A stretch of DNA of 64,000 nt, taken from Nanobdellota archaeon (lineage in GTDB: Archaea > Nanobdellota > Nanobdellia > SCGC-AAA011-G17 > UBA489). The DNA lies in contig JAUYMN010000008.1 of assembly GCA_030699455.1 (NCBI GenBank), forward strand, positions 6,271 to 70,270. Direction: 5' to 3'. Under the pieces are notes generated by a model. That model was not told where the DNA came from. It saw only the letters and a list, made by a program, of their open reading frames with translations, and made no database searches. A program made the position numbers and the translations under genes. Positions 6,507 to 32,184 of this stretch are shown here, one piece after another; position 1 is the first letter of the stretch, and every line of letters begins with the position of its first letter.

Positions 6507-6638
6507 ATGTTTGAAGCTAGTTGTAATGGATGCGAAGCGGTTTATAGTATTGAGGACAGCAGTATGCCTCAGTCTTTTAAGTGCTTATGTGGTTCAGAAA
6601 AGTTCAGTGTCAAAGAAAATACATTAGTTGTTGCTTAA
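6507..6638 (+). CDS. small zinc-ribbon protein (43 aa)
   Basis: CNGC...CLC cysteine pairs. Below the ORF-track size cutoff. Confidence 0.3.
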   Translation: MFEASCNGCEAVYSIEDSSMPQSFKCLCGSEKFSVKENTLVVA

Positions 6639-6644
6639 ATCTTG

Positions 6645-7475
6645 TTATATTATTAGTATAATCAGATATGCTAGTAGGCACCCCGCCGTTATAAATGGCA
6701 TCGCCGGATAAAACTTATTCTTTTTACCGATATACATAAGATAAAATAATGCGCCTGCTGTGAAGAATGGAATTAAATATGCTAAATTTCCGTAGGTCTT
6801 CATTACCACCCCTGCAAATATTAATGGAAGCCCAATATCTCCACCCCCTAAAATTGCAAACTTGTTTTTTGAATATGGAATCATAATTCCAGGAAAAATA
6901 TTCAGTTTTGTGTGTGACTTTGCCATTTTTACCATATGTTTTGTTTTGTTGACAGCAATATAATCATATATTGAAATTATTATTAAAAAAATTGTAATGC
7001 TAGCCAAATTCATGATTGGAACAAATACTGCAGCAAGCCCGCCATAAATAAATAATTCGCTTATGTTTTGTGTTACTACATTGTTTTTGAATATTTTTGC
7101 ATATGATAATACTATTGATAAGATAATTGCTAGTTGACTTGATAAAAATGCTGCAAATGATATTAATAAACAGAAAACGACTGATAAAAAGAACCAAGCT
7201 TTCCATAACCATTGCACATTGAATTTTATTATTAATAAAATAAAAAAAGTAACTAACAATACCATAATCAACATTGGGATGTATGAAGTACCTTCTTCAA
7301 GATCTGGTCTTTCTATATCATATGGGAGGTCATTGTATTCTATTTCTTTTACTTCCTTACCATCTATTGTTTTTGTTTTTTCAATTGAATAAGAATCAAC
7401 TATAAATAATCCAATAAACTGTGATAAGATAAAAATTGTCAATAAAATTGCAGTAATCTTTGCTGAGTGTTTCAT
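6645..7475 (-). CDS. presenilin/signal-peptide-peptidase-like intramembrane aspartyl protease
   Basis: Polytopic membrane protein with YD (SIYDYIAV) and GxGD-like (LGGGDIGLP) motifs, as in the A22 family. Confidence 0.65.
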   Translation of the reverse strand: MKHSAKITAILLTIFILSQFIGLFIVDSYSIEKTKTIDGKEVKEIEYNDLPYDIERPDLEEGTSYIPMLIMVLLVTFFILLIIKFNVQWLWKAWFFLSVVFCLLISFAAFLSSQLAIILSIVLSYAKIFKNNVVTQNISELFIYGGLAAVFVPIMNLASITIFLIIISIYDYIAVNKTKHMVKMAKSHTKLNIFPGIMIPYSKNKFAILGGGDIGLPLIFAGVVMKTYGNLAYLIPFFTAGALFYLMYIGKKNKFYPAMPFITAGCLLAYLIILII

Positions 7476-7659
7476 TTATGATTTTAGAAACATATATAAA
7501 TTAAATATGTTTCTATTTTCGTATGAAAGTAATCAGACATGTTCTCTTTCTTGGGAAATAATTAGAGGTGGTTGTGGAACATGTCTGTACTTTTATCCCG
7601 AAACTACACTTGCTGAGTTTAAGGAGAGATTTTAAAAACAGGGTTAAGATTGCATTATT

Positions 7660-10600
7660 ATGACTGCCCAAGACAGAAGAATCGCCTACATGGATAAAGC
7701 ACACGACAAAAAGGAGATAGATAGAGTTCTAAATCCATTTGTTAAAAAATGGTTTTTTTCAAAATTTAAGGATTTTTCATTGCCACAGACTTATGCAGTT
7801 AAAGAAATTCACGACAGAAATAATATATTAGTTTCAGCCCCCACTGGTGGAACCAAGACACTAACTGCTTTCTTAAGCATACTAAATGAGCTTGTTAATC
7901 TCTCAATGTCAAACTCTTTGGAAGATAGGGTTTATGCAGTTTATATTTCTCCATTAAAAGCATTGAACAATGATATTCACAGAAATTTAGAAGAGCCATT
8001 GAATGAGATAAAAGAACTGGCTAGAAAAGAAGGTGTTGATTTGAATATTAGGATTGCAACCAGAACAGGTGATACCACACCTAGTGAAAGGCAAAAGATG
8101 TTAAGGAAGCCACCACATATATTGATTACAACGCCAGAATCGTTAGCCCTCATGCTTGGAAGCCTAAAATTTAAGGAATTAATGTTTGATGTTAACTGGT
8201 GCATAATTGATGAGATTCATGCATTGGCTGACAACAAAAGGGGCGTTCATATGGCTTTAAGCCTTGAAAGGCTGAATGTTCAGTCTCCAAACTTAACAAG
8301 AATTGGATTGAGTGCTACCGTCGAACCAATAGAGGAAGTTGCTAGATTTTTAGTTGGTAGTGGAAGAAACTGCAAAATAGCAAAAGTTGGTTTTGTTAAG
8401 AAGTTTGATCTGAAAGTTCTTAGCCCAATAAAAGATTTCTTTGATGTTACAGCTGAAAAGATGCAAAATAAATTGTATGATTTATTGGATAAACTAATAC
8501 AAGAACATAAGACTACATTAATATTTACCAATACTCGCGCAGGAACTGAAAGAGTGGTTCATCATCTGAAGGAAAGGTATCCATCTAATTATAGTGAGAA
8601 TATTGGCGCACATCATGGAAGTTTAAGCAAGAAATATAGAACAAATATAGAAAAAAGACTGAAAGAAGGTAAACTAAAAACAGTTGTTTGCTCCACAAGT
8701 TTGGAGTTGGGTATAGATATTGGTTATATTGACTTGGTTATTTGTTTGGGCAGTCCAAAGGGTGTTGCAAGGTTTCTTCAGAGATGTTTGCCTTATGAAT
8801 CAAGGGTCTTGCTTGCCGATGGCACTTATAAGGAAATTGGCGAGATTGTTGAAAAAAAGTTAGATGTTGAAATACTTTCATATGATATAAAAAAATGCAG
8901 GTTTGTTAGCAACAAAATTTCAAAATATCACAAAAATAAATCAAAAAATTTTTTAGAAATAAAGTTACATTCCGGGTCTAAAATCAGATGCACAGAGGAG
9001 CACCCCATTTTAACAAGAGATGGTTGGAAAAAATCAAAAAATCTTAAGAAAGGAGAGGATATAGCTGAAATTTTTGATTTTAAATATGATGACACCCCAT
9101 ATATTTACGAATTAATAAACAATAAGGATTTTTATGTGGAAAATAAGGAAGATTTTATTAAAGAATGTGTTGATAAATACATCATAGATAATAAAATTTC
9201 TTATTCTAAATTCGCCAAACTCATGGGGATAAATCAGAATAAATTACAGGATATTATGAGGAAAAAAGGAAGAAGAAAAAGCATTAGGCTTGATTTGTTC
9301 ATAAAAATAATGAATCTTTGCAATGTTCATAAAAATACCTATCATCCCTGCCTTAAGGGATTGAAGAGCCAGTCCCATCATAGAAAATTGTTGTCTTTAA
9401 AACCGGATAAAGCGCTAATGTGGCTGGCAGGCATAGTCGCCTCAGATGGGTGCATTACCAAACACAAAAAAACAGGAGAATACAAAATAAAGATTGGAAA
9501 CAAAGATTTGAATATATTAAAAAAATGTCAGTCTATTTTTAATAAGTATGGATTTTATCAAAAAATCAATACAAGAAAAAGAGATGGGATTATGTCTATT
9601 GAATGCGGATCTAAAATTTTATCCCAGATATTTATTTCTTTTGGCATAAAAACAAAAAATAAATCAATCGATTTGGAAGTTTCTAATGTTTTGTATAAGA
9701 TGCCAAAAAATCTTGTTATACCATTTATTGAAGGAGTTTTAGAGGGAGATGGCAATGTCTCACAGGATAGAATAAGAATTTTTTCTGCTAGTAGCAAGTT
9801 TATTTCAGGTTTGCATAACCTCCTTAACAGGCATGGAGTTCATAATTATTTTTGTGAGCAGGAGGCAAAAGTATCAAAAATTGTTCCAAAAATTAATTTT
9901 AAAAATATATATTGTCTTTATGTTTCAAGAAAAAGGCACCTGAGAAAATTCCTAAAATATTGTATTTTTAATGAAAAAAAAGTTAAATCTTTAAGAAGCT
10001 CTGTCGATTACCATTATAAATCAGATAAGGATATTGAAAAAAATATTCATTGGACAAAAATAAAGTCAATTAATTATGCCAAACACAATGGATACGCATA
10101 TAACTTAACTTTGGAAAATGAGCCCAACGATTATTTTGTTGAGAGTATCTTAACCCATAACTGTGGTAGATCGGGACACAAAATGCATGAAACAGTTAAA
10201 GGTAGATTAGTTGTTATGGACAGGGATGATTTGGTTGAGTGCAGTGTTTTATTAAAAAATGCAATGGATAAAAAAATTGACAGAATTGATATCCCAATGA
10301 ACTGTTTAGATGTTTTGGCTCAACAGATACATGGCATGGCCTGTACCGAAGTATGGGACAAGTGGAAGATGTATGAGACTATAAAAAAAAGTTATTGCTA
10401 TAGCAGTTTAACCATAAGTGATTTTGAAGAGATTCTTGATTATCTTGCCGGCAGTTTTGCAAGGCTTGAAGAAAGATATGTCTATGCAAAAATATGGTAT
10501 GATCCGGAAACAAATCAGATTGGAAAGAAAGGCAGGATGGGAAGGGTAATCCATATGACAAATATAGGAACTATTCCTGACACTACAAATGTCAAAGTTA

Positions 10601-22378: not shown

Positions 22379-22442
22379 GGGGACACTCTCTTGATGGTGC
22401 TTACACACTTGTAACTTTTTATTGAGAAAACGGGGGCAACTA
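22379..22442 (+). repeat. left arm of 64-bp perfect inverted repeat
   Basis: Exact reverse complement of 24939-25002. Includes the TAG stop of the TrmB gene. Confidence 0.95.
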
Positions 22443-23940: not shown

Positions 23941-24941
23941 TGAATCAATTAAGACAATCATTAAGAGAATTTAAGAGTGATTTTGATAGAAAAATTGTCG
24001 CATATTTTGATGCAAAAATTGGTGAACAAGCAAATCCGGAGTTGAAAGAAGTTTTTGGTCATCTGAAAGATTATGTTTTAGCAGGGGGGAAACGTCTTAG
24101 ACCGAATATTCTTTACAGAATAAATCAAGAATTCAAACAATTAGATGGAATTGATAATGTTCTTCTTGCTTTTGAGTTTCTTCATAATTCTACGTTAATT
24201 GATGATGATGTGATAGATGAACATGATACAAGAAGAAGCAGAGCAACTCTTCCAACAGTTTATGGTGATAGAAATTATAGAGGAGATTTTGCTGCTTTGT
24301 TAAGCGCTAACTTACTAAGAAATGCAGGAATTGATTTAATTGTAAATTCAGAATTATCAAGAGATTTTCAAAGAGAATGTGGGTTGGCGTATCAAGACAT
24401 AGGAAGAAGCATAGATTTAGCACAAATTCTCGATTTAGAATATAGGGGAAGATTGAATTTATTAGAAGAAGATTATATTGCTCAAGCAGATTTAGTGGCA
24501 GCAAGATTTATCGCTTATATGTTTCAACTCTGCACACCTGAAAAATACAAAGAAGAATTTTATCAAGTAGGAAGAAATTTAGGGATTGCATTTCAGTTAG
24601 CAGATGATTTAATGGATATAGATGCAACAAAGCAGAAAGGTCGTGGTCTTGGCTCAGATATTAGAGAAGGAACACCAACATTATTATCAATTTATGCTTC
24701 AGAAAGATTAGAGGGTGTAGATAGAGAAAAGTTTAGAGGATTATTTGGCAAAAAAGATTTAACAGAGGATGAATTACAATGGATTATTACTCAATATGAA
24801 AACAGTGCAGTCATAGAAGATTCAAGAGAAAGAGTTAGAGATTACATTAATAGAGCAAATCACATTTTATCAGATGTGGGAATTCCTCAAGATCATTGGA
24901 TAGTCGCATTTGGTGAGTATAGTTTACAGCGATCTCATTAG
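23937..24941 (+). CDS. polyprenyl (trans-isoprenyl) diphosphate synthase
   Basis: First DDxxD (LIDDDVID) and second DDxxD (LADDLMD). ATGA overlap with the methyltransferase gene. Confidence 0.85.
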   Translation: MMNQLRQSLREFKSDFDRKIVAYFDAKIGEQANPELKEVFGHLKDYVLAGGKRLRPNILYRINQEFKQLDGIDNVLLAFEFLHNSTLIDDDVIDEHDTRRSRATLPTVYGDRNYRGDFAALLSANLLRNAGIDLIVNSELSRDFQRECGLAYQDIGRSIDLAQILDLEYRGRLNLLEEDYIAQADLVAARFIAYMFQLCTPEKYKEEFYQVGRNLGIAFQLADDLMDIDATKQKGRGLGSDIREGTPTLLSIYASERLEGVDREKFRGLFGKKDLTEDELQWIITQYENSAVIEDSRERVRDYINRANHILSDVGIPQDHWIVAFGEYSLQRSH

Positions 24942-25002
24942 TTGCCCCCGTTTTCTCAATAAAAAGTTACAAGTGTGTAAGCACCATCAAGAGAGTGTCC
25001 CC
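24939..25002 (+). repeat. right arm of 64-bp perfect inverted repeat
   Basis: Exact reverse complement of 22379-22442. Includes the TAG stop of the prenyl synthase gene. Confidence 0.95.
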
Positions 25003-25027
25003 CATCATTTTTAGTGTCCCGAGTAAT

Positions 25028-25130
25028 ATGTCGTATAATCGCTGTTAAACTCCCCGAACGGAACGAAGTGAGGTGAAAGCGCAACGTGGTCGACCGAAGG
25101 GAGAGGTTCGGTGCTCGCCGAAAGTTTGTT
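25028..25130 (+). repeat. junction-core repeat, full unit without payload
   Basis: atgtcgtataatcgctGTTAAACtccccgaacggaacgaagtgag. ccgaac pairs with gttcgg and aaac with gttt. Ends at the next GTTATAG (25131). Confidence 0.65.
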
Positions 25131-25200
25131 GTTATAGTAGTTGTTGAAAAATATATTATTAACTTTCAAGTAGTAAAAGAAACGAAAGATTTATAAAGTA
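25117..25200 (+). repeat. cassette 5' flank repeat A, copy 1
   Basis: About 90 percent identical by eye to 30709-30792. Contains TTGTTGAAAAATA, AACGAAAGAT and the TTTATAAAG TATA box. Identity stops 3 nt after the TATA box. Confidence 0.85.
25190..25198 (+). promoter_or_regulatory. TATA box (TTTATAAAG)
   Basis: About 25 nt upstream of the ATG at 25219. Confidence 0.5.
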
Positions 25201-25218
25201 TAGCAAATAACTATCAAT

Positions 25219-25605
25219 ATGAAAATGAATAAAACTTTAACTAGCATCGTTTTGGCAGGAGCTTTAGCTCTTAGTGGCTGTAGTGGAAAAGTCGACGATT
25301 CTAGATATGATTTCAAGGGAAAACTTGGAGATGAACAGGTAGAATTTATACGACAAGGCAATTTTTTGGTCTCCTCTGTAGATGATGGGTTATATTTAAC
25401 AGTTACAAAAGCAGATGGAAAAACTATAACTTATATCGACAGAGGAAATGATTTGAAACTAGATGAAGTAATAATCGGATACGAAGTTTATATAAATGAT
25501 GCTGTTGGACAAAACGCATTAGAATTGGCACAACAACAATTTGATGGTTATTTGACAAAAATTCTTGAATATAAACAGCAAAAAGCTGTTGATGCAATCA
25601 AGTAA
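25219..25605 (+). CDS. lipobox lipoprotein, hypothetical
   Basis: MKMNKTLTSIVLAGALALSGC has a signal peptide and lipobox. Confidence 0.6.
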   Translation: MKMNKTLTSIVLAGALALSGCSGKVDDSRYDFKGKLGDEQVEFIRQGNFLVSSVDDGLYLTVTKADGKTITYIDRGNDLKLDEVIIGYEVYINDAVGQNALELAQQQFDGYLTKILEYKQQKAVDAIK

Positions 25606-25763
25606 ATCTTTCGTTCTATAATTTTTATTTTTCAACAATTTCATTAAAATTTTGTTAGGCAAAGTTACGAAGTAATTTTGTGAAAGTTTTCTGTTATGAT
25701 TTTAACGAAGATAACAACATTAGAATTTTTGGTTTTAACCTCTGTGAGGCGAGCCCCGAATTG
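25606..25763 (+). repeat. cassette 3' flank repeat B, copy 1
   Basis: Starts immediately after the stop codon and is near-identical to 31127-31283. ATCTTTCGTT and TATTTTTCAACAA are inverted copies of elements in repeat A. Contains a degenerate core at 25693. Confidence 0.85.
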
Positions 25764-25856
25764 AACTTAATGCCTGTTATATTCTTGAACGGAACGAAGT
25801 GTAATGAGACGAGCAAAGCGAAGAGTTTTGCGTTAGCAAGATTGTACATAATCGCT
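25759..25856 (+). repeat. junction-core repeat, full unit without payload
   Basis: aattgaacttaatgcctGTTATATtcttgaacggaacgaagtg, hairpin gcaaa/tttgc, and right arm gcgttagcaagattgtacataatcgct abutting the next GTTATAT. Confidence 0.65.
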
Positions 25857-25921
25857 GTTATATTCTTCGAATGAAATGAGGCCAAAATCTGAAGGATTTT
25901 GAGTTTCTGATGGCACAAATT
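25841..25921 (+). repeat. junction-core repeat, left arm of the hicBA cassette
   Basis: attgtacataatcgctGTTATATtcttcgaatgaaatgag, hairpin caaaatc/gattttg (25883-25901), then the left inverted-repeat arm tttctgatggcacaaatt (25904-25921). Confidence 0.65.
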
Positions 25922-25929
25922 ATATAAAT
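25921..25929 (+). promoter_or_regulatory. TATA box (TATATAAAT) for hicB
   Basis: About 26 nt upstream of the ATG at 25951, directly after the left inverted-repeat arm. Confidence 0.45.
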
Positions 25930-25950
25930 CATTACATATGGAATAATATT

Positions 25951-26163
25951 ATGAAATATAGAATAACAATGGAACAAGACGAAAAAGGCATTTATGTTGT
26001 AGAATGTCCAATTCTTCCTGGATGTATATCTGAAGGTTTAACTAGAAAGGAGGCCTTAGATAATATTAAAGATGCTATTAAAGGATATATAGACAGTCTA
26101 AAAAAGCATAATGAGCCAATACCTCTATCAATTGATGAGGAAATGGTGGAAGTAAATGCCTAA
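25951..26163 (+). CDS. hicB: HicB-family antitoxin
   Basis: 70 aa, YVVECPILPGCISEGLTRKEALDNIKDAI (UPF0150/HicB fold pattern). Overlaps the hicA start. Confidence 0.8.
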   Translation: MKYRITMEQDEKGIYVVECPILPGCISEGLTRKEALDNIKDAIKGYIDSLKKHNEPIPLSIDEEMVEVNA

Positions 26164-26385
26164 ACTTCTTTCGAATCTTTCTGGCTTAAAACTTGTAAAA
26201 TTATTTTCTAAATTAGATTATGAATAGATCATCAAACCGGCAGTCATATAATATTAAGACAGAATAAATATCCATTTAGAAGGTTAACTATACCAAAACA
26301 TAAGTCACTAGCAAAAGGCACATTAAGAGCAATTATAAAACAATCTGGACTAACAAAAGAGGAATTTTTAAAGTTTCTAACCTAA
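26156..26385 (+). pseudogene. hicA: hicA toxin, frameshifted
   Basis: MPKLLSNLSGLKLVKLFSKLDYE then TAG at 26225. The homologous remainder (GSHIILRQ...TIPKHKSLAKGTLRAIIKQSGLTKEEFLKFL) continues in the -1 frame from 26224 to 26385. Confidence 0.7.
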
Positions 26386-26459
26386 TTGTGCCATCAGAAA
26401 TTGTACATAACTTCTGCTATATTGTCTGGGGTTTATCCCCAGATTAACCCGTTAGGGTT
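26384..26459 (+). repeat. right arm of the hicBA cassette plus degenerate junction core
   Basis: aattgtgccatcagaaa is the inverted partner of 25904-25921. Then ttgtacataacttctGCTATAT, hairpin tctgggg/ccccaga (26425-26443), and aacccGTTAgggtt. Confidence 0.6.
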
Positions 26460-26661
26460 GAAGTATGACGCAAGAACCAACATTAAGGAGTTTTGAACAA
26501 ATTGACCGTAACTGATTAGCTGGCGAGACTAAGCCACAGTTGCTAATAGGTTGCCTTTCATAATGGGATGCTGTATGGCTTCAGAAAATTACAAGAGAAG
26601 CTATTGAAGGGAATAAGGAGAAAAGTACGAAGCCGAGATTGATTTAGACATCATCTTTTGG

Positions 26662-27588
26662 CTAATTCCATTTGAGCATCTCATTATAAAATGCTTCTGC
26701 TTGTTTTTGATCAAATTTATCTGGGTCTCCTAAACACCTTGTTTCAACAAAATTCTTGTTCTCATCGTAAATGTTCCATATAACATACTTGTAGGTCTTT
26801 CCTATATCTCCAGTTTCAGAAATTATTGTTTTTTCAATGTATGCATTAACATTGCCCATTCCAAAGAAATAAGTGTAACCTCCGCAGTAGTACTTGTTAA
26901 GGTTTTCACCTTCTTTAGTTCCCTTTCTACAATTAGCAGATCCTTTTATTGTCCATCCATCATAAGTTTTCCCACTTATATCTGTGGTTTCATAAGGTGT
27001 TCCTTCATTGTGAAATTTCATTTCCACATTAATCTGTGGGCAATTAGATTTAAGGGTTTTTGAAAATTTCTCAGTACCTTTTTTGAATATACCTTCAAAC
27101 TGGTTATTTGATTTTGTTGTCAGATTGGTTTCAAAATTAGAACTACTCCCATAATGAATTTCTTGTTGATCTGAATTGTGTATCAGGTATAATGTAATTG
27201 CAATCACAAAAATCCACAAAAATAAATTTGAATGATCCATTCTAGATATCCTTACAAGATATGCTACCAAAACCAGTCCAACAGCTGTAAAGATAATGCT
27301 TGCCACATAATCAATAATTCCAAGATAATTAGCAAGAATAAATAGCACCCATATCGCACCAGTATTTATTACTCCCCAAAACAAAAAGGATTTGTCAACA
27401 ATAAATTTTTGTTTTGTAGTAAATATCTTTGCAAATTTTGCTAATATTGTTAATCCAAAACCCATAAAAATCAGCTGAAAGAAACTGTTCTCAATGTTTA
27501 AGTAATTTAAGAGATAACCCAAAACATACAATGAAATAGAGTGAATGACAATCCAAATTAAAGACCATTTCAAACTAAAGTTTTTCAT
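26662..27588 (-). CDS. membrane protein with extracytoplasmic C-terminal domain, hypothetical
   Basis: 308 aa with about 5 N-terminal TM helices, then a soluble Cys-containing domain. Confidence 0.5.
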   Translation of the reverse strand: MKNFSLKWSLIWIVIHSISLYVLGYLLNYLNIENSFFQLIFMGFGLTILAKFAKIFTTKQKFIVDKSFLFWGVINTGAIWVLFILANYLGIIDYVASIIFTAVGLVLVAYLVRISRMDHSNLFLWIFVIAITLYLIHNSDQQEIHYGSSSNFETNLTTKSNNQFEGIFKKGTEKFSKTLKSNCPQINVEMKFHNEGTPYETTDISGKTYDGWTIKGSANCRKGTKEGENLNKYYCGGYTYFFGMGNVNAYIEKTIISETGDIGKTYKYVIWNIYDENKNFVETRCLGDPDKFDQKQAEAFYNEMLKWN

Positions 27589-27960
27589 TTTTGTTGCGTT
27601 TCATATTCTGGAATTCTTCTTTTCACTTGCTTCCGCCCACATGAACCCAATTTTTTTTGAAGATAGAAATCATCTTTTCTCTAGCTCCATAATCTGTCTT
27701 AATTAAGAGATATAAAAAGTTTGTCTATGGATATTTTGCAAAGTTAAAGAATGGTATCACCTTTTTTCTTAAGAAAAAGAGTGGAAATGGGAGCAAACTC
27801 CTAAAAGGAGGTACCCACCATGAATGGCATTTGAGACAGCAAATGCCATTCAAGAGATATAACAATTATTACTAGTAAATTATTCCGTTCACATGATTTC
27901 TAAGTTTTATTCTATCCATAATGCCAAAATTGATAGGACGTTCGTACTTCAATGTATGTA

Positions 27961-28509
27961 TCAAGTAAAAATTTCCATAATTTTTTCAATAGAAATTTCT
28001 TGGTTAATTATGGATAAAAGAATTATTAAAAAAATAATAACAATGATTGATAGAATTATTTTTGATGCTATGGTTTTTCTTTCATATTTTTCTTCATTCG
28101 GCTGGTTTTTTTGTTCTATAGTTGGTGTTGGTTTTATGTAATCTCCTTTTTTAAATTTCTTAGTAAATTTTTCAATATCCCTATCCAATTGTTCATTCTT
28201 AAATTTTTTTTCTATTGATACTTTTTTTCTTCTGTTTTTTATTTTATTTATTCTGCCATAATCTCCATTGCATCCATGTTCTTCTGGAAGTCTGCAATTT
28301 TCACAATGAGATTCATCACAGTAATTACACACAAAAGGTATATGATTTATTTCTTTTTCACAAGAATCACACTTATTTTTAGGTCTTGGTTTTCTTCTCC
28401 GCCCCATTCTTCTTTGGTTCCAAGCATGTTCATCAAAATCCTCTTCTTCATACTCTTCCCTATCATTCTCATCTTCTTCTCTATCCCATCTCTTAGAAAA
28501 AGTTCCCAT
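27961..28509 (-). CDS. AN1-like zinc-finger protein with C-terminal membrane anchor
   Basis: CDSCEKEINHIPFVCNYCDESHCENCRLPEEHGC is close to the AN1 pattern. Charged N-terminus and a C-terminal TM. Confidence 0.55.
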   Translation of the reverse strand: MGTFSKRWDREEDENDREEYEEEDFDEHAWNQRRMGRRRKPRPKNKCDSCEKEINHIPFVCNYCDESHCENCRLPEEHGCNGDYGRINKIKNRRKKVSIEKKFKNEQLDRDIEKFTKKFKKGDYIKPTPTIEQKNQPNEEKYERKTIASKIILSIIVIIFLIILLSIINQEISIEKIMEIFT

Positions 28510-28511
28510 TT

Positions 28512-29252
28512 TCAGCAGAAATTTTGTGTTACGTAGATATCATACCAATTTCCTTCTGAACTCTCAAGAACAGAAACTCCAATTCCATGGTTCCTATGGT
28601 GGGGAGTAAGTATATTTTCTCTATGTCCTGGGCTACTCATCCAACCATTGACTATATTTTCGGCTACTTCTCCCATTGTACAAGGATGGGAATGAGTAGC
28701 ACCTACAACGATCAGTTCTCTAGTGATGTCATAATAATCCAATGCAAGATTCTCAGCTCCCTCGGATAAATAGGTTTCGTATTGTTGTGTAGTAATTTCA
28801 TAAATGCCATATTCACCTTCTTCTATCTCAGTTTCTTCTGGATAGTATATTGTATCGATTGGAACTGAACAATAATAATTTGCTTGTTTGTATCTATAGT
28901 CAAATCTATTTCCTTCAAGATCTTCATGTTCAAAATGTTTGTTTTTGGCCATATAGTCACTATACTTTCTTGCAATTTGGTTTAATTCTTCATCCCATTT
29001 TAACATATTAAGTTTGGCATTCTTTCTTTCAACCCTTACCTTCCTATGTATCAACAATTCTAATTCTTCAACATTGATATCTTCACATTGAATATTGCTT
29101 TCAAAAGAGTTGGTTTCATCTTTATAGCTTTCTGTGCTAATATCATCAAAATCCAAAAAATAAATACCTACCAAAAAAATAGAACCAATAACTAAAAGTG
29201 GAATAATCCGGCTTGTTGGAATTATAACTAAAAAGCCTTTCTTTCTATACAT
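28512..29252 (-). CDS. CAP/SCP/PR-1-like domain protein, membrane-anchored
   Basis: N-terminal TM, with KWDEELNQIARKYSDYM, GAENLA and NGWMSSPGHRENIL motifs. Confidence 0.75.
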   Translation of the reverse strand: MYRKKGFLVIIPTSRIIPLLVIGSIFLVGIYFLDFDDISTESYKDETNSFESNIQCEDINVEELELLIHRKVRVERKNAKLNMLKWDEELNQIARKYSDYMAKNKHFEHEDLEGNRFDYRYKQANYYCSVPIDTIYYPEETEIEEGEYGIYEITTQQYETYLSEGAENLALDYYDITRELIVVGATHSHPCTMGEVAENIVNGWMSSPGHRENILTPHHRNHGIGVSVLESSEGNWYDIYVTQNFC

Positions 29253-29475
29253 TCTGCCATTGACGGGATATAGGTCTCTTTTAAATTTTTAGGTCCTGGG
29301 TAACTGATTAGCTACTTTTGAAACGGAGTTCAATTCAGCCTTCTTTTGTAGAATTTTTGTATTATACGGACAAAAAGGATGTTAAATTAGCCTCTATTTG
29401 ACATAGCTAATCAGTTACAATTGACCAAAAGATTTAAATATGTGTAATCACATTTCTACACATAGGTGATCAAAA

Positions 29476-29700
29476 ATGACTAATTTAACATTAGCAATTC
29501 CAGAAGATTTGCATGAAAAAATGAAACATCACTCTGAAATAAGATGGAGTGAAGTAGTGAGAAAATCAATCTCTCAGAAGATTGAATTATTAGATGCAAT
29601 GAATAAAATTGCAAGTAAAAGTAAGTTAACAAAGAAAGATGTAGATGAAATCTCAAAGAAAATTAAAGCAGAAACATTTGATGAGTTAAACAAAAAATGA
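29476..29700 (+). CDS. vapB: VapB-like antitoxin (ribbon-helix-helix-like)
   Basis: 74 aa, LTLAIPEDLHEKMK N-terminus. ATGA overlap with the PIN gene. SD-like GGTGAT upstream. Confidence 0.6.
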   Translation: MTNLTLAIPEDLHEKMKHHSEIRWSEVVRKSISQKIELLDAMNKIASKSKLTKKDVDEISKKIKAETFDELNKK

Positions 29701-30116
29701 TCATCATTATTGATGTTAATGTTTTTCTTTCTGCTTTAATTAAGGATTCAACTTCAAGAGAAATTTTGTTAACATACGAGCAAGAATTTTGTTTTCCAGA
29801 GAGATCATTGCAGAAAATACGAAAGCATAAATCTCTTATTCAAAAGAAGTCTGAACTTTCTGATTTAGATTTTCTGAAGTTGTTTCATTCTTTATTAAAG
29901 TTTATCAGAATCATTCCTGATGAAGAATTATTAGATCAATGGGATGAAGCGATGAAAATAATGGCACACATTGATGAAGAAGATGTGACTTTTATTGCAG
30001 CAGCATTGAGTCAGAATAATGCAGTAATCTGGTCTGATGATAAGCATTTTGAGAAACAGGATAAAGTGTTTACACTAAAAACAAAAGATTTGGTCAATTT
30101 ATTTGAGAATAACTAA
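29697..30116 (+). CDS. vapC: PIN-domain toxin
   Basis: IIIDVNVFLSALI N-terminal acidic residue, EEDVTFIAAA, and WSDDKHF. Confidence 0.75.
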   Translation: MIIIIDVNVFLSALIKDSTSREILLTYEQEFCFPERSLQKIRKHKSLIQKKSELSDLDFLKLFHSLLKFIRIIPDEELLDQWDEAMKIMAHIDEEDVTFIAAALSQNNAVIWSDDKHFEKQDKVFTLKTKDLVNLFENN

Positions 30117-30156
30117 TTTCAAAACGCCTCTCTTTTCTTTGTTGGTTCTGAGTAAT

Positions 30157-30235
30157 ATTCAATATAATGCCTGTTATGTTCTCCGAACGAAGTGAGGACA
30201 AGCGAACGAAGTGAGTGAAGAGTTCAAAAAAGACT
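30157..30235 (+). repeat. junction-core repeat with duplicated iteron
   Basis: attcaatataatgcctGTTATGTtctccgaacgaagtgag. cgaacgaagtgag occurs twice (30184-30196, 30203-30215). Then the left inverted-repeat arm ttcaaaaaagact (30223-30235). Confidence 0.65.
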
Positions 30236-30280
30236 TTCTATGTGGTAATATATCTCAAAAGATATAAACTCCTTAAAAAT

Positions 30281-30595
30281 TTATCTTGGAGAATAAGGTA
30301 ATTGTGGGACAGAATATCGTGTTTTAAATTCTCTATTTATTCTTTCGATCTTGTTATGAATGTACTCCATTTGACCATATAGCCGACAATCTGCGATACA
30401 GTTCTCTTTACCACCACTATCTTGAAACGATTGGTGTGCTTCTTTGAAATCATTATCTAACATTTCTATAAGGGCGTCTAAACCATGGGCTGATATTTTA
30501 TGTTTCATAACTACTAATAAGTTACAAATTATATATAAATCTAACGGTTTTTCTATGGTTCTGACGGGCTTTCTCATGATAATTGAGCTTATCAT
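30281..30595 (-). CDS. hypothetical protein
   Basis: 104-aa ORF bracketed by the 13-bp inverted repeat 30223-30235/30604-30616. On the minus strand, ATTATATTC from the core lies about 27 nt upstream of the start. Confidence 0.4.
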   Translation of the reverse strand: MISSIIMRKPVRTIEKPLDLYIICNLLVVMKHKISAHGLDALIEMLDNDFKEAHQSFQDSGGKENCIADCRLYGQMEYIHNKIERINREFKTRYSVPQLPYSPR

Positions 30596-30614
30596 GATGC
30601 TACAGTCTTTTTTG

Positions 30615-30722
30615 AATTGAATATAATTTCTGTTAGTTTCTCCGAATGAAATGAGAACGAGATTTTAGTGCAACGATGCTGAAGGCAAAAATCTCGAGTT
30701 CTGGGCTTGCCGAAAATTCGTT
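30615..30722 (+). repeat. junction-core repeat, full unit without payload
   Basis: aattgaatataatttctGTTAGTTtctccgaatgaaatgag. Stem cgagatttt (30658-30666) / aaaatctcg (30688-30696) with loop agtgcaacg... and an extrahelical ag. Right arm gcttgccgaaaattcgtt. Confidence 0.7.
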
Positions 30723-30792
30723 GTTATTGTAGTTGTTGAAAAATAAGTTATTAACTCTCAAGTGGTAAAAGAAACGAAAGATTTATAAAGTA
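30709..30792 (+). repeat. cassette 5' flank repeat A, copy 2
   Basis: Partner of 25117-25200. Confidence 0.85.
30782..30790 (+). promoter_or_regulatory. TATA box (TTTATAAAG)
   Basis: About 29 nt upstream of the ATG at 30815. Confidence 0.5.
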
Positions 30793-30814
30793 ATTAGTTT
30801 TCGTAAGTATTACA

Positions 30815-31126
30815 ATGAAACTATATCAAAAAATTGCAACATATACATTTATTGGTGCTGCAAGTTTAGGATTATTTGGTTGTGATAAAAAAGATTCACA
30901 ACGAGCAACTGAACAACCATTACCAGCTGAAATGAGAACATATGAAGTTAGCCCATATGTATTTGGTAAATCTAAAATTAATTATGACCATTTACCAAAT
31001 CTAGGATGGTCGGACATGATTGGGGTAACTTGCGGAGATTTAGATGGTGATGGAGATTTAGAAGTGATTGTTGCAACAAAAGATGGATTAACAATTTACG
31101 AAAACAGAACAGAACAAAAAAGATAA
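30815..31126 (+). CDS. lipobox lipoprotein with FG-GAP-like repeat
   Basis: IGAASLGLFGC signal and lipobox-like Cys, plus CGDLDGDGDLEVIVATKDG. Confidence 0.6.
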   Translation: MKLYQKIATYTFIGAASLGLFGCDKKDSQRATEQPLPAEMRTYEVSPYVFGKSKINYDHLPNLGWSDMIGVTCGDLDGDGDLEVIVATKDGLTIYENRTEQKR

Positions 31127-31283
31127 ATTCTTTCGTTCTATAATTTTTATTTTTCAACAATTTCTTTAAATTTTTGTTAGACAAAGTTACGAAGTAATTT
31201 TGTGAGTTTTCTTTTATGATTTTAACGAAGATAACAACATTAGAATTTTTGGTTTTAACCTCTGTGAGGTGAGCCCCGAATTG
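31127..31283 (+). repeat. cassette 3' flank repeat B, copy 2
   Basis: Partner of 25606-25763. Similarity ends at gagccccgaattg, the last recognisable array sequence. Confidence 0.85.
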
Positions 31284-31478
31284 TGTTGAACAATATATAT
31301 GCGAAGAAGCACGAATTCCTATATTTTAGACGTTATGAAGGCATTATTTGGAAGATTGAGTTAGAAAAACTGTTTTCTTTTATGTGTAGTAAAAACAACT
31401 TATTTTTGACTTTTAACCGCATTTTCTTCGATTTTTTTGAATTAAGTTTTTTTAAGAGTTTATAGTAACTGGTTTTAA

Positions 31479-32184
31479 TGGCTTTGGATGTGCTTTATAA
31501 CATGAAAAGAGAGTTGTTTAGGAGGAAGCTGTCTCCAAGAACTGTTAAAACATACCTGCTGTATGTTAGATTATTTCTTCGAGCAAATAAAGACATCAAG
31601 AAACTCGCGAATCTGCTTTAGGCTTCTTCGCAGTATTTACTACAATTCTTGATTAAATCTAACCATCAATTCTCACTTAAGTCTTTTTTATCAACCGCCA
31701 TCATAACTTTCATAAAATCATTAGGAACCAGAAGTTTATCAAACATAGATGACGTTAACTTTACAGCTGGTGAAAAGGCTTAAATAATTTTGCGGGATGG
31801 ATTGAGTACACTGAAGCGCTACAATAATGGTCTACTCAATTTTAATCTTTATGGGAGAAGAAATTCAGAATCAATACACTAGTGGGGTATGAACTTAAAA
31901 TTATTGCTAAAGGCAATGCGCCTGGAATTTGACAGGTTAATTCTACAACATATGCTCCTGACGAAATTGCAGTTTCTGCCATGAAGTATGTTTAAGATGC
32001 TATTGAAAATGATGGAGCATTAATGAGGCAGTCTGATAGAATTACTACAATAGACAGGCCTATGATTAAAATTGTTTGCTCTGATAGTTACACATTAGTG
32101 CACCCAGCAACTATTGAAGATATGTTAAAGTACAGAAGAGGGCATGGGACAATGGCAAGAAAGCTGGCTCCATCAAGACCATAA
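31479..32184 (+). pseudogene. tyrosine recombinase/integrase, heavily decayed
   Basis: N-terminal SAM-like domain signature KLSPRTVKTYLLYVRLFL, then an in-frame TAG at 31620-31622. The frame continues (FLIKSNHQFSLKSFLSTAIITFIKSLG) to a TAA at 31782. Downstream fragments in shifted frames resemble catalytic-domain blocks (LLNFNLYGRRNSES; LKIIAKGNAPG; RRGHGTMA). No ORF of 60 aa or more across 31.47-32.19 kb. Confidence 0.6.

What the first reader, a model, noticed from the sequence alone, without database searches (positions are those of the whole stretch)
26499..29426. 2.9-kb transposase-less element with 14-bp perfect TIRs and an 8-bp target-site duplication
- GTAACTGATTAGCT (26508-26521) and its exact reverse complement (29405-29418) are each flanked on the outside by AATTGACC in direct orientation. 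This is the classic TIR plus TSD signature.
- The element carries a polytopic membrane protein, an AN1-like zinc-finger protein with a C-terminal anchor, and a membrane-anchored CAP/SCP domain protein. All three are on the minus strand.
- A third TIR copy at 29300-29313 pairs with 29405-29418 to form a 119-bp foldback (MITE-like) at the right end.
- The space between two of the genes (27589-27960) contains no good ORF but has a 12-bp perfect hairpin (27821-27852).

No transposase is present in the window.
Basis: seen in the sequence. Interest (0 to 1): 0.6.

Follow-up and report, generated by a model that had tools for sequence, protein, structure and literature searches.

The report
Transposase-less IS66-type element carrying three genes
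A 2.9-kb piece of DNA with three membrane or secreted-protein genes was inserted into this small archaeal (Woesearchaeota-type) genome as a passenger-carrying, transposase-less derivative of an IS66-family insertion sequence; this is a tidy example of a known kind of mobile element, not a new mechanism.

Summary
GTAACTGATTAGCT lies at 26508-26521 and 29300-29313 (+) and at 29405-29418 (-). AATTGACC flanks the outer pair on both sides.

- **Family of the repeat.** In other genomes of the same order, the same 14-mer (one base different) ends 1.42-kb insertion sequences. Each encodes one 440-aa IS66-family transposase and has a perfect 8-bp target duplication. This is the ISBst12-group layout.
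- **The foldback.** The 119-bp foldback at 29300-29418 belongs to a MITE family. It occurs in several genera, has 26 end copies in one genome, and also makes 8-bp duplications.
- **Evidence of insertion.** A related RHH-PIN module in a metagenome contig reads straight across the joined flanks, so it serves as an empty-site homologue.
- **Cargo.** The 308-aa cargo gene is missing from all 24 other genomes of the family. The genes for the AN1 protein and the membrane protein lie next to each other in other Woesearchaeota. CAP and AN1 domains are fused in some proteins.
- **No helper.** No IS66 transposase was found in this genome or genus.

Verdict: a non-autonomous IS66/ISBst12-type element, a "mobile insertion cassette". 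It is bounded by a relic IS end on the left and a whole MITE on the right. It is a new member of a known kind, of modest interest.

The parts
26500..26507 (.). Left copy of the 8-bp target-site duplication, AATTGACC.
   Evidence: The 8-mer is native to the RHH-PIN module. Related modules read AATTAACC, AATTATCC or AAGTTTACC at the same place.
26508..26521 (+). Left terminal inverted repeat, GTAACTGATTAGCT.
   Evidence: It differs by one base from the repeats of intact IS66-family elements, GTAACTGTTTAGCT.
26508..26592 (+). Subterminal 'type B' end, probably a relic of the right (transposase 3') end of an IS66-family element.
   Evidence: - It is 95% identical over 58 bp to G000:C20:8185-8242.
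- The 30 nt after the repeat match the right end of the intact IS in L048 at 18 of 30 in ungapped register (p = 2.5e-4). Left ends and MITE ends match at background level.
- The residual reading frame gives ..YSIPL*KATY*QLWLSLAS*, against the transposase C-terminus ..WSIRGLNTYQMLRLNLSS*.
26662..27588 (-). Cargo gene 3: a 308-aa protein with five predicted membrane segments and a conserved, cysteine-bearing, all-beta C-terminal domain of unknown function.
   Evidence: -.
- The C-terminal domain is 66-71% identical in alignment A1, and 57-74% by tblastn, to that of other Woesearchaeota proteins.
- The gene is absent from the 24 other genomes of the family.
- The structure model is moderate and has no fold match.
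27589..27960 (.). Spacer without an ORF, holding a 13-bp perfect hairpin at 27821-27833 / 27840-27852.
   Evidence: The spacer is not conserved in the related AN1-membrane-protein loci. Its role is unknown.
27961..28509 (-). Cargo gene 2: a 182-aa AN1-like zinc-finger protein with a C-terminal membrane anchor.
   Evidence: - zf-AN1 scores 27.7 bits against a cut-off of 27.9.
- The hydrophobic segment covers residues 144-162.
- AN1 homologues sit directly upstream of homologues of the 308-aa protein in L075, L079 and L082.
28512..29252 (-). Cargo gene 1: a 246-aa CAP/SCP-domain protein with an N-terminal membrane anchor.
   Evidence: - PF00188 scores 61 bits.
- The best homologue among 5.8 billion proteins is only 39% identical.
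- Two hits fuse CAP and zf-AN1 in one protein.
29300..29418 (+). A complete 119-bp MITE. Its inner repeat is 29300-29313 and its outer repeat is 29405-29418. The outer repeat serves as the right end of the 2.9-kb unit.
   Evidence: - Homologues at 74-79% identity occur in other genera, and homology stops exactly at the repeats.
- Copies elsewhere have perfect or 7-of-8 target duplications.
- This copy alone has none: GGTCCTGG against AATTGACC.
- As single-stranded DNA it folds with z = -4.6.
29419..29426 (.). Right copy of the 8-bp target-site duplication, AATTGACC.
   Evidence: It lies just upstream of the TATA-like TTTAAATA of the RHH-PIN operon.

Best explanation
Window 26508-29418 (2,911 bp) is a non-autonomous derivative of an IS66-family insertion sequence of the single-ORF ISBst12 type. 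In ISfinder terms it is a 'mobile insertion cassette'.

**Structure**
- The left end is a relic of an IS right end: the 14-bp repeat plus roughly 45-85 bp of decayed subterminal sequence.
- The right end is supplied by the outer repeat of a complete 119-bp MITE of the same family.
- Between the ends lie three passenger genes that point towards the relic end: CAP-domain protein, AN1 zinc-finger protein and a five-segment membrane protein.

**How it got here (inferred)**
- An IS66-type DDE transposase made elsewhere bound the two outward-facing repeats.
- It moved the whole unit into the sequence ...TTTTGAACA|AATTGACC|AAAAGATTTAAATA, just upstream of the promoter of an RHH-PIN toxin-antitoxin module.
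- Staggered cuts 8 bp apart produced the AATTGACC duplication.

**What is shown and what is inferred**
- Shown: the repeats and the duplication; the family link to intact IS66 elements and to the MITEs; an empty-site homologue; the absence of the 308-aa cargo gene from relatives; the absence of a transposase in this assembly.
- Inferred: that the cargo travelled with the ends in one transposition event; that the unit formed when a MITE landed next to genes adjoining a solo IS end; and that it could still move if a matching transposase were supplied.
For: 1. The repeats and the duplication are exact. The chance of the 8-mer match is 3.3e-5.
2. Intact elements share the ends. G075:C87:10427-11852 and G088:C104:43490-44908 end in GTAACTGTTTAGCT. 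Each encodes one 440-aa protein that matches DDE_Tnp_IS66 (154 and 135 bits) and NCBIfam NF033517 'IS66 family transposase' (276 and 253 bits, cut-off 180). Their duplications, AAAAAAGA and GAAAGGCT, are perfect 8-mers.
3. A published ISBst12-group element has the same layout. ISDge4 has the repeat GTAACTGCTCAGCA, a 449-aa transposase and an 8-bp direct repeat (PMC12898284).
4. The MITE family is real. Copies of 119-128 bp with covarying repeats occur in several genera. G022 has 26 end copies. Duplications are 8 of 8 in five copies (plus one variant-end copy in L022) and 7 of 8 in two.
5. An empty-site homologue exists. Metagenome contig Ga0210057_1001056 (L067) reads CAAATTTAAGGCGTTTTGAACAAGTTTACCAAAAGATTTAAATA. 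That equals window 26478-26507 joined directly to 29427 onward. The alignment runs unbroken across the junction at 83% identity.
6. The 308-aa cargo gene is absent from all 24 other genomes of the family, including 8 of the same genus. The cargo has no paralogues in this genome.
7. The relic end occurs twice in this genome (window and C20:8185-8242) with the same in-frame stops. It was therefore copied after the transposase had decayed.
8. The MITE alone has no duplication, whereas the 2.9-kb unit has a perfect one.
Against: - Only one copy of the whole 2.9-kb unit is known. No second insertion site was found. The CAP protein has no homologue above 39% identity.
- The empty site comes from a homologous RHH-PIN module (83% identical) in a different genomic context, not from a sister strain.
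- No IS66 transposase is present in this 83%-complete assembly, in the genus, or intact in the family. Current mobility is therefore unproven.
- The link between the left end and an IS right end rests on 18 of 30 bases and a short residual frame. A gapped alignment test was not significant.
- GC content does not set the element apart: 31.7% against 33% and 31.6% in the flanks.
Confidence: 0.78

Rival explanations
1. In-situ decay. A complete IS66/ISBst12-type element inserted at AATTGACC and made the duplication. Its transposase gene was later replaced on the spot by the three genes and the MITE. On this reading the cargo was never moved by transposition.
For: - The left end seems to keep the last codons of a transposase gene.
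- Many solo ends lie next to ordinary genes in related genomes.
- L050 shows that the inside of such an element can be swapped: it holds an IS630-type transposase between the same repeats.
Against: - The right end is a whole, conserved MITE whose inner flank carries no duplication. This is easier to explain if its outer repeat was used as an element end.
- The decayed left end exists in two places with the same stops, so it spread after the decay.
- This scenario needs an unexplained import of three genes, at least one foreign to the family, into an IS interior.
Confidence: 0.15
2. Coincidence. A solo IS end and a MITE landed independently on either side of three resident genes, and the two AATTGACC copies match by chance.
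For: Solo ends and MITEs of this family are scattered in related genomes.
Against: - The 8-mer match has p = 3.3e-5.
- The two flanks are contiguous in L067.
- The 308-aa gene is absent from all relatives in the family.
- The MITE lacks a duplication of its own.
Confidence: 0.03
3. The inverted repeat is a 'private' recombination site of the surrounding cassette island, used by a site-specific (Xer or integrase-type) recombinase rather than by a transposase.
For: - The element lies in a stretch with repeated junction cores: 25760, 25841, 26400 and 30157.
- Larger direct repeats lie at 25117-25200 / 30709-30792 and 25607-25763 / 31129-31283.
- Earlier notes describe a cassette island here.
Against: - The 14-mer is unrelated to the junction cores.
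- It ends intact IS66 elements and MITEs across the order, all with 8-bp duplications. Such duplications are the mark of DDE transposition, not of site-specific recombination.
Confidence: 0.02

Closest known systems
ISBst12 group of the IS66 family, for example ISDge4 of Deinococcus geothermalis (PMC12898284)
   Same: - The terminal repeats begin GTAACTG and contain AGC near the end: ISDge4 has GTAACTGCTCAGCA, this element GTAACTGATTAGCT.
- Both make an 8-bp direct repeat.
- The autonomous relatives found here have a single transposase ORF of 440 aa that meets the IS66 family models.
   Different: - The window element has no transposase, only a decayed remnant of its last codons.
- It carries three unrelated genes.
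- One of its ends is a MITE.
- The host is a small-genome archaeon.
Mobile insertion cassettes (MICs), such as MIC231 of Bacillus cereus; term as used in PMC3129680
   Same: IS-type inverted repeats, a target duplication, no transposase and passenger genes. Mobilisation by a related transposase in trans is presumed.
   Different: - It derives from IS66 rather than the IS4/IS231 family.
- Its two ends are of different origin: a relic IS end and a whole MITE.
- Trans-mobilisation has not been shown, and only one copy is known.
MITEs of archaea and bacteria
   Same: The 119-bp unit at 29300-29418 is short and non-coding. It has terminal repeats and 8-bp duplications, and it is multi-copy in some genomes.
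   Different: It shares only the 14-bp repeat with the parent IS. In this genome there is one full copy and one 40-bp fragment.
Compound (composite) transposons
   Same: Genes are mobilised by two flanking IS-derived ends acting together.
   Different: Neither flank is a complete IS, and no transposase is carried.

Membership tests
IS66 family (ISBst12 group), as a non-autonomous derivative | Terminal inverted repeats of the family type, starting 5'-GTAA. | tested here: met
   - GTAACTGATTAGCT lies at both ends.
- It is one base from the repeats of intact IS66-family elements in the same order.
- It matches ISDge4 GTAACTGCTCAGCA at 10 of 14 positions.
IS66 family (ISBst12 group), as a non-autonomous derivative | An 8-bp target-site duplication. 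| tested here: met
   - AATTGACC is present twice.
- Perfect 8-bp duplications flank the intact elements, the 343-bp element and five MITEs.
IS66 family (ISBst12 group), as a non-autonomous derivative | A DDE_Tnp_IS66 transposase. | tested here: not met
   - None is present in the element or the assembly. It is therefore not an IS in its own right, only a derivative.
- Autonomous relatives with the same ends do encode one.
Mobile insertion cassette (MIC) | IS-type repeats and a duplication around passenger genes, with no transposase. | tested here: met
Mobile insertion cassette (MIC) | Mobilised as a unit by a transposase supplied in trans. | not testable with these tools
   The only evidence is indirect:
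- an empty-site homologue;
- the 308-aa cargo gene is absent from relatives;
- no second copy was found.
MITE (the 119-bp unit) | Short, non-coding, with terminal repeats and a target duplication, and present in several copies. | tested here: met
   The copy in the window lacks its own duplication.
Compound transposon | Two complete IS copies flank the cargo. | tested here: not met
   The left side is an end relic of about 85 bp and the right side is a 119-bp MITE.

The most novel reading that the evidence does not exclude
A solo IS end and a MITE together captured a three-gene surface-protein module and moved it between Woesearchaeota lineages. It landed in a genus that has no transposase of its own. 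That would make IS66-type cassettes a route of gene gain in reduced, symbiont-type archaeal genomes. The helper enzyme would come from outside the cell line: a co-resident strain, a host or a virus.
Probability: 0.15. Interest if true: 0.5.

Novelty: new member of a known kind. Interest (0 to 1): 0.3.

Why it matters
- It explains a piece of the accessory island in this small archaeal genome in ordinary terms.
- It adds an IS66/ISBst12-type insertion sequence, its MITEs and a passenger-carrying derivative to the mobile elements of Woesearchaeota-type archaea.
- It shows that in these reduced genomes membrane and secreted-protein genes can arrive by transposition.
- It also links three poorly known genes (CAP, AN1 zinc finger and a membrane protein with a conserved C-terminal domain) as one likely functional module.
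- It does not reveal a new mechanism.

Tried and rejected
- **Rfam** on 24000-32000 with loose thresholds gave no hit, so the foldback is not a known RNA.
- **tRNA scan:** no tRNA lies near the element.
- **Partner end for the solo end at C20:8242:** none found.
- **Empty site in genomes of the same genus and family:** their RHH-PIN and HicAB modules sit in other contexts.
- **Interior of a second end type in G022:** it is not in the bin.
- **Exact-protein look-ups.** CAP, HicB and the 128-aa lipoprotein are not on record. The 308-aa, AN1 and RHH proteins are found only in short Logan contigs of run SRR13727534, and these match the filled state at the left junction.
- **Structure of the 308-aa protein.** The single-sequence model was poor (pLDDT 47). 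A 9-sequence model of the C-terminal domain was moderate (pLDDT 62) and had no significant PDB fold match. There was no PDB sequence match either.
- **Gapped alignment** of the left end to IS right ends was not significant. Only the ungapped, end-anchored comparison was.
- **Bacterial promoter and terminator scan** was uninformative for an archaeon.
Full report
**1. Observation**

- GTAACTGATTAGCT lies at 26508-26521 and 29300-29313 on the plus strand and at 29405-29418 on the minus strand.
- AATTGACC lies directly outside the outer pair, at 26500-26507 and 29419-29426.
- The outer repeat is 14 bp and no longer.
- With the window's base composition, an 8-mer match at a fixed pair of places has p = 3.3e-5.

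The three minus-strand genes also fit the description:

| Protein | Domain evidence | Hydrophobic segments |
|---|---|---|
| 246 aa | CAP domain, PF00188, 61 bits | one, N-terminal |
| 182 aa | zf-AN1, 27.7 bits (cut-off 27.9) | one, C-terminal |
| 308 aa | no Pfam match | five |

The spacer hairpin is a 13-bp perfect stem at 27821-27833 / 27840-27852.

**2. Other copies in the same genome**

The window is contig C24 of a 770-kb, 28-contig assembly with 34% G+C and 83% estimated completeness. The 14-mer occurs twice more.
- C20:46689-46702 is exact. It shares 40 bp with the inner arm of the foldback.
- C20:8229-8242 has one mismatch. It shares 58 bp at 95% identity with the left end of the element.

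The two ends of the 2.9-kb unit are therefore different kinds of end that share only the 14-bp repeat.

**3. The foldback is a MITE**

- A DNA search of 40 relatives found 74-79% identical copies of window 29300-29418 in three other genera of the same family.
- In an alignment, homology stops exactly at the repeats. The repeats covary between genomes: GTAACTGATTAGCT, GTACGTGTTTAGCT, GTACGTATTTAGCT and GCACGTGTTTAGCT.
- A pattern search found the repeat in 7 of 25 genomes of the family and 30 of 240 genomes of the order. The reversed control pattern gave almost no matches.
- One genome (G022) has 26 end copies. Many are 119-bp units, and many sit at contig ends.
- Across the copies I fetched, the 8 bp on either side match 8 of 8 in five MITEs and 7 of 8 in two. 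One variant-end copy (L022) also has a perfect duplication.
- The window's MITE taken alone matches 1 of 8. The 2,911-bp unit matches 8 of 8.

**4. The autonomous partner**

- Two pairs of repeats about 1.42 kb apart, G075:C87:10427-11852 and G088:C104:43490-44908, each enclose one 440-aa ORF.
- Both proteins match Pfam DDE_Tnp_IS66 (154 and 135 bits). Both match NCBIfam NF033517 'IS66 family transposase' (276 and 253 bits, cut-off 180).
- Both elements have perfect 8-bp duplications, AAAAAAGA and GAAAGGCT. Their repeat, GTAACTGTTTAGCT, differs from the window's by one base.
- A single ORF, an 8-bp duplication and a GTAACTG...AGC repeat are what is published for ISDge4. That element belongs to the ISBst12 group of the IS66 family and has the repeat GTAACTGCTCAGCA, a 449-aa transposase and an 8-bp direct repeat (PMC12898284).
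- Homologues of this transposase occur in 30 of 240 genomes of the order. None is in the window's genome or genus, and the family holds only fragments.

**5. The left end**

In the intact elements the transposase stop codon lies inside the right repeat (AGC TAA ACAGTTAC).
- Read in that same frame, the window's left end gives ..YSIPL*KATY*QLWLSLAS*. The transposase C-termini read ..WSIRGLNTYQMLRLNLSS* and similar. The C20 copy has the same stops as the window.
- In ungapped register, the 30 nt after the repeat match the right end of the L048 element at 18 of 30 (p = 2.5e-4). They match a right end that carries a transposase remnant (L041) at 15 of 30.
- IS left ends and MITE ends match at 3-9 of 30.
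- A gapped test was not significant.

I take the left end to be a relic of an IS right end. The support is moderate. Because the same decayed end sits at two places in this genome, it was copied after the transposase was lost.

**6. Insertion site**

- The element lies 50 bp upstream of an RHH-PIN operon (29476-30116; PIN_2, 80 bits).
- A metagenome search with the PIN protein gave 15 loci. In most of them homology to the window starts at 29417-29424, which is at the duplicated 8-mer.
- In one locus, contig Ga0210057_1001056 (L067), the sequence upstream also matches the window's left flank. L067 reads CAAATTTAAGGCGTTTTGAACAAGTTTACCAAAAGATTTAAATA. The window reads 26478-26507, CAACATTAAGGAGTTTTGAACAAATTGACC, followed by 29427 onward, AAAAGATTTAAATA.
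- When the window's flanks are joined with one copy of the 8-mer, the alignment runs unbroken across the junction for 739 columns at 83% identity.
- This is an empty site at the level of the module, not of the strain. In L067 the module has different neighbours.
- The 8-mer is native to the module, because related modules read AATTAACC, AATTATCC or AATTACC there.
- The insertion leaves the TATA-like TTTAAATA and the bases before it intact.

**7. Cargo**

- The 308-aa gene is absent from all 24 other genomes of the family, including 8 of the same genus. Only one distant match to its N-terminal part was found.
- The cargo has no paralogues in this genome.
- The C-terminal domain of the 308-aa protein is 57-74% identical by tblastn to proteins of other Woesearchaeota assemblies, named as such in their records. 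It has four invariant cysteines.
- In three of those loci an AN1 zinc-finger gene lies directly upstream. There are no repeats nearby, and the neighbours are core-type genes.
- The CAP protein has no homologue above 39% identity among 5.8 billion proteins. Two hits carry CAP and zf-AN1 in one chain.
- The three genes thus look like one functional set of membrane-bound or secreted proteins. What they do is unknown.
- The structure model of the C-terminal domain (pLDDT 62) is all-beta and has no significant fold match.

**8. Context**

- The element sits within a run of repeated junction cores and larger direct repeats. Earlier notes of this scan read that run as a cassette island.
- I saw the repeats myself but did not study the island.
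- The repeats of the element are unrelated to those cores. They are explained by the IS family, so this payload's inverted repeat is not a private one.

**9. Reading**

The simplest history has three steps.
1. A MITE landed beside genes that adjoined a solo IS end.
2. An IS66-type transposase then used the solo end and the far repeat of the MITE as a pair.
3. The transposase moved the whole unit to AATTGACC in front of the RHH-PIN promoter.

The perfect repeats and the perfect duplication point to a recent event. The main rival is that a complete IS inserted here and its inside was later replaced. I cannot exclude this, because only one copy of the unit is known.

A Logan contig of run SRR13727534 starts exactly at 29419, the first base of the right duplication copy. 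That is what a branch between filled and empty alleles would give. However, the left junction is spanned by another contig of the same run, and other breaks fall at arbitrary places, so this is inconclusive.

**10. Verdict**

This is a real, well-bounded, transposase-less IS66/ISBst12-type element with passenger genes. It is a mobile insertion cassette in the sense used in PMC3129680. It is a new member of a known kind and is of modest interest.

Noticed in passing
window 25904-25918 and 26386-26400; 26156-26384: A perfect 15-nt inverted repeat (TTTCTGATGGCACAA / TTGTGCCATCAGAAA) brackets HicB and a HicA gene that is split over two reading frames. The split could be a frameshift or a sequencing error. 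A junction core follows directly at 26400-26423.
   Followed up: partly
G000 contig C20 (L006) 6557-8242: tRNA-Thr is followed by a 33-bp direct repeat (6640-6672 and 8163-8195). The repeat encloses a two-gene module, one gene of which is a DUF6036/AbiEii-like nucleotidyltransferase. The right copy abuts the solo IS end relic at 8185-8242. It looks like a site-specific insertion next to an old IS scar.
   Followed up: partly
L050 (G050:C19:4550-5772): The same 14-bp repeats enclose a 338-aa IS630/Tc1-type transposase (DDE_3, 130 bits) instead of an IS66 one, and there is no target duplication. The right end still resembles the IS66 right end. It seems to be a chimeric element.
   Followed up: partly
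L056 (G186:C27:51863 onward): An exact copy of the window's repeat, with a leader like an IS left end, runs straight into a Nudix hydrolase gene and a membrane-protein gene. This may be another case of ordinary genes behind an IS66 end. No partner end was found.
   Followed up: no
L053 (G099:C25:4650-4693): A 44-bp palindrome made of two facing copies of the 14-bp repeat with 16 bp between them. It is the smallest derivative seen, and it has no target duplication.
   Followed up: no
L100 (Logan contig SRR13727534_252530) = window 29419-31158: The contig starts exactly at the first base of the right duplication copy and is 99.94% identical to the window. The left junction is spanned by another contig of the same run (L101 = window 26455-27610). 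This might mark a branch in the assembly graph at the element's end.
   Followed up: partly
proteins P0013 and P0021: These proteins carry a CAP domain and an AN1 zinc finger in one chain. That supports a functional link between the two adjacent cargo genes.
   Followed up: no
G022 (same family), many contigs: There are 26 copies of the repeat. Most are 119-bp MITEs or contig ends cut about 40-55 bp into the repeat unit. No IS66 transposase is in the bin. This suggests a MITE burst with the helper missing from the assembly.
   Followed up: partly
window 25117-25200 / 30709-30792 and 25607-25763 / 31129-31283; 22379-22442 / 24939-25002: Direct repeats of 84 bp (92% identical) and 157 bp (95.5% identical) frame two different small lipoprotein genes on either side of the stretch that holds the element. 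A perfect 64-nt inverted repeat lies further left.
   Followed up: no
L043 (G010:C22:13746): A solo copy of the repeat lies 76 bp upstream of an ORF that looks like ribosomal protein S6e. Solo ends of this family often sit just upstream of ordinary genes.
   Followed up: no
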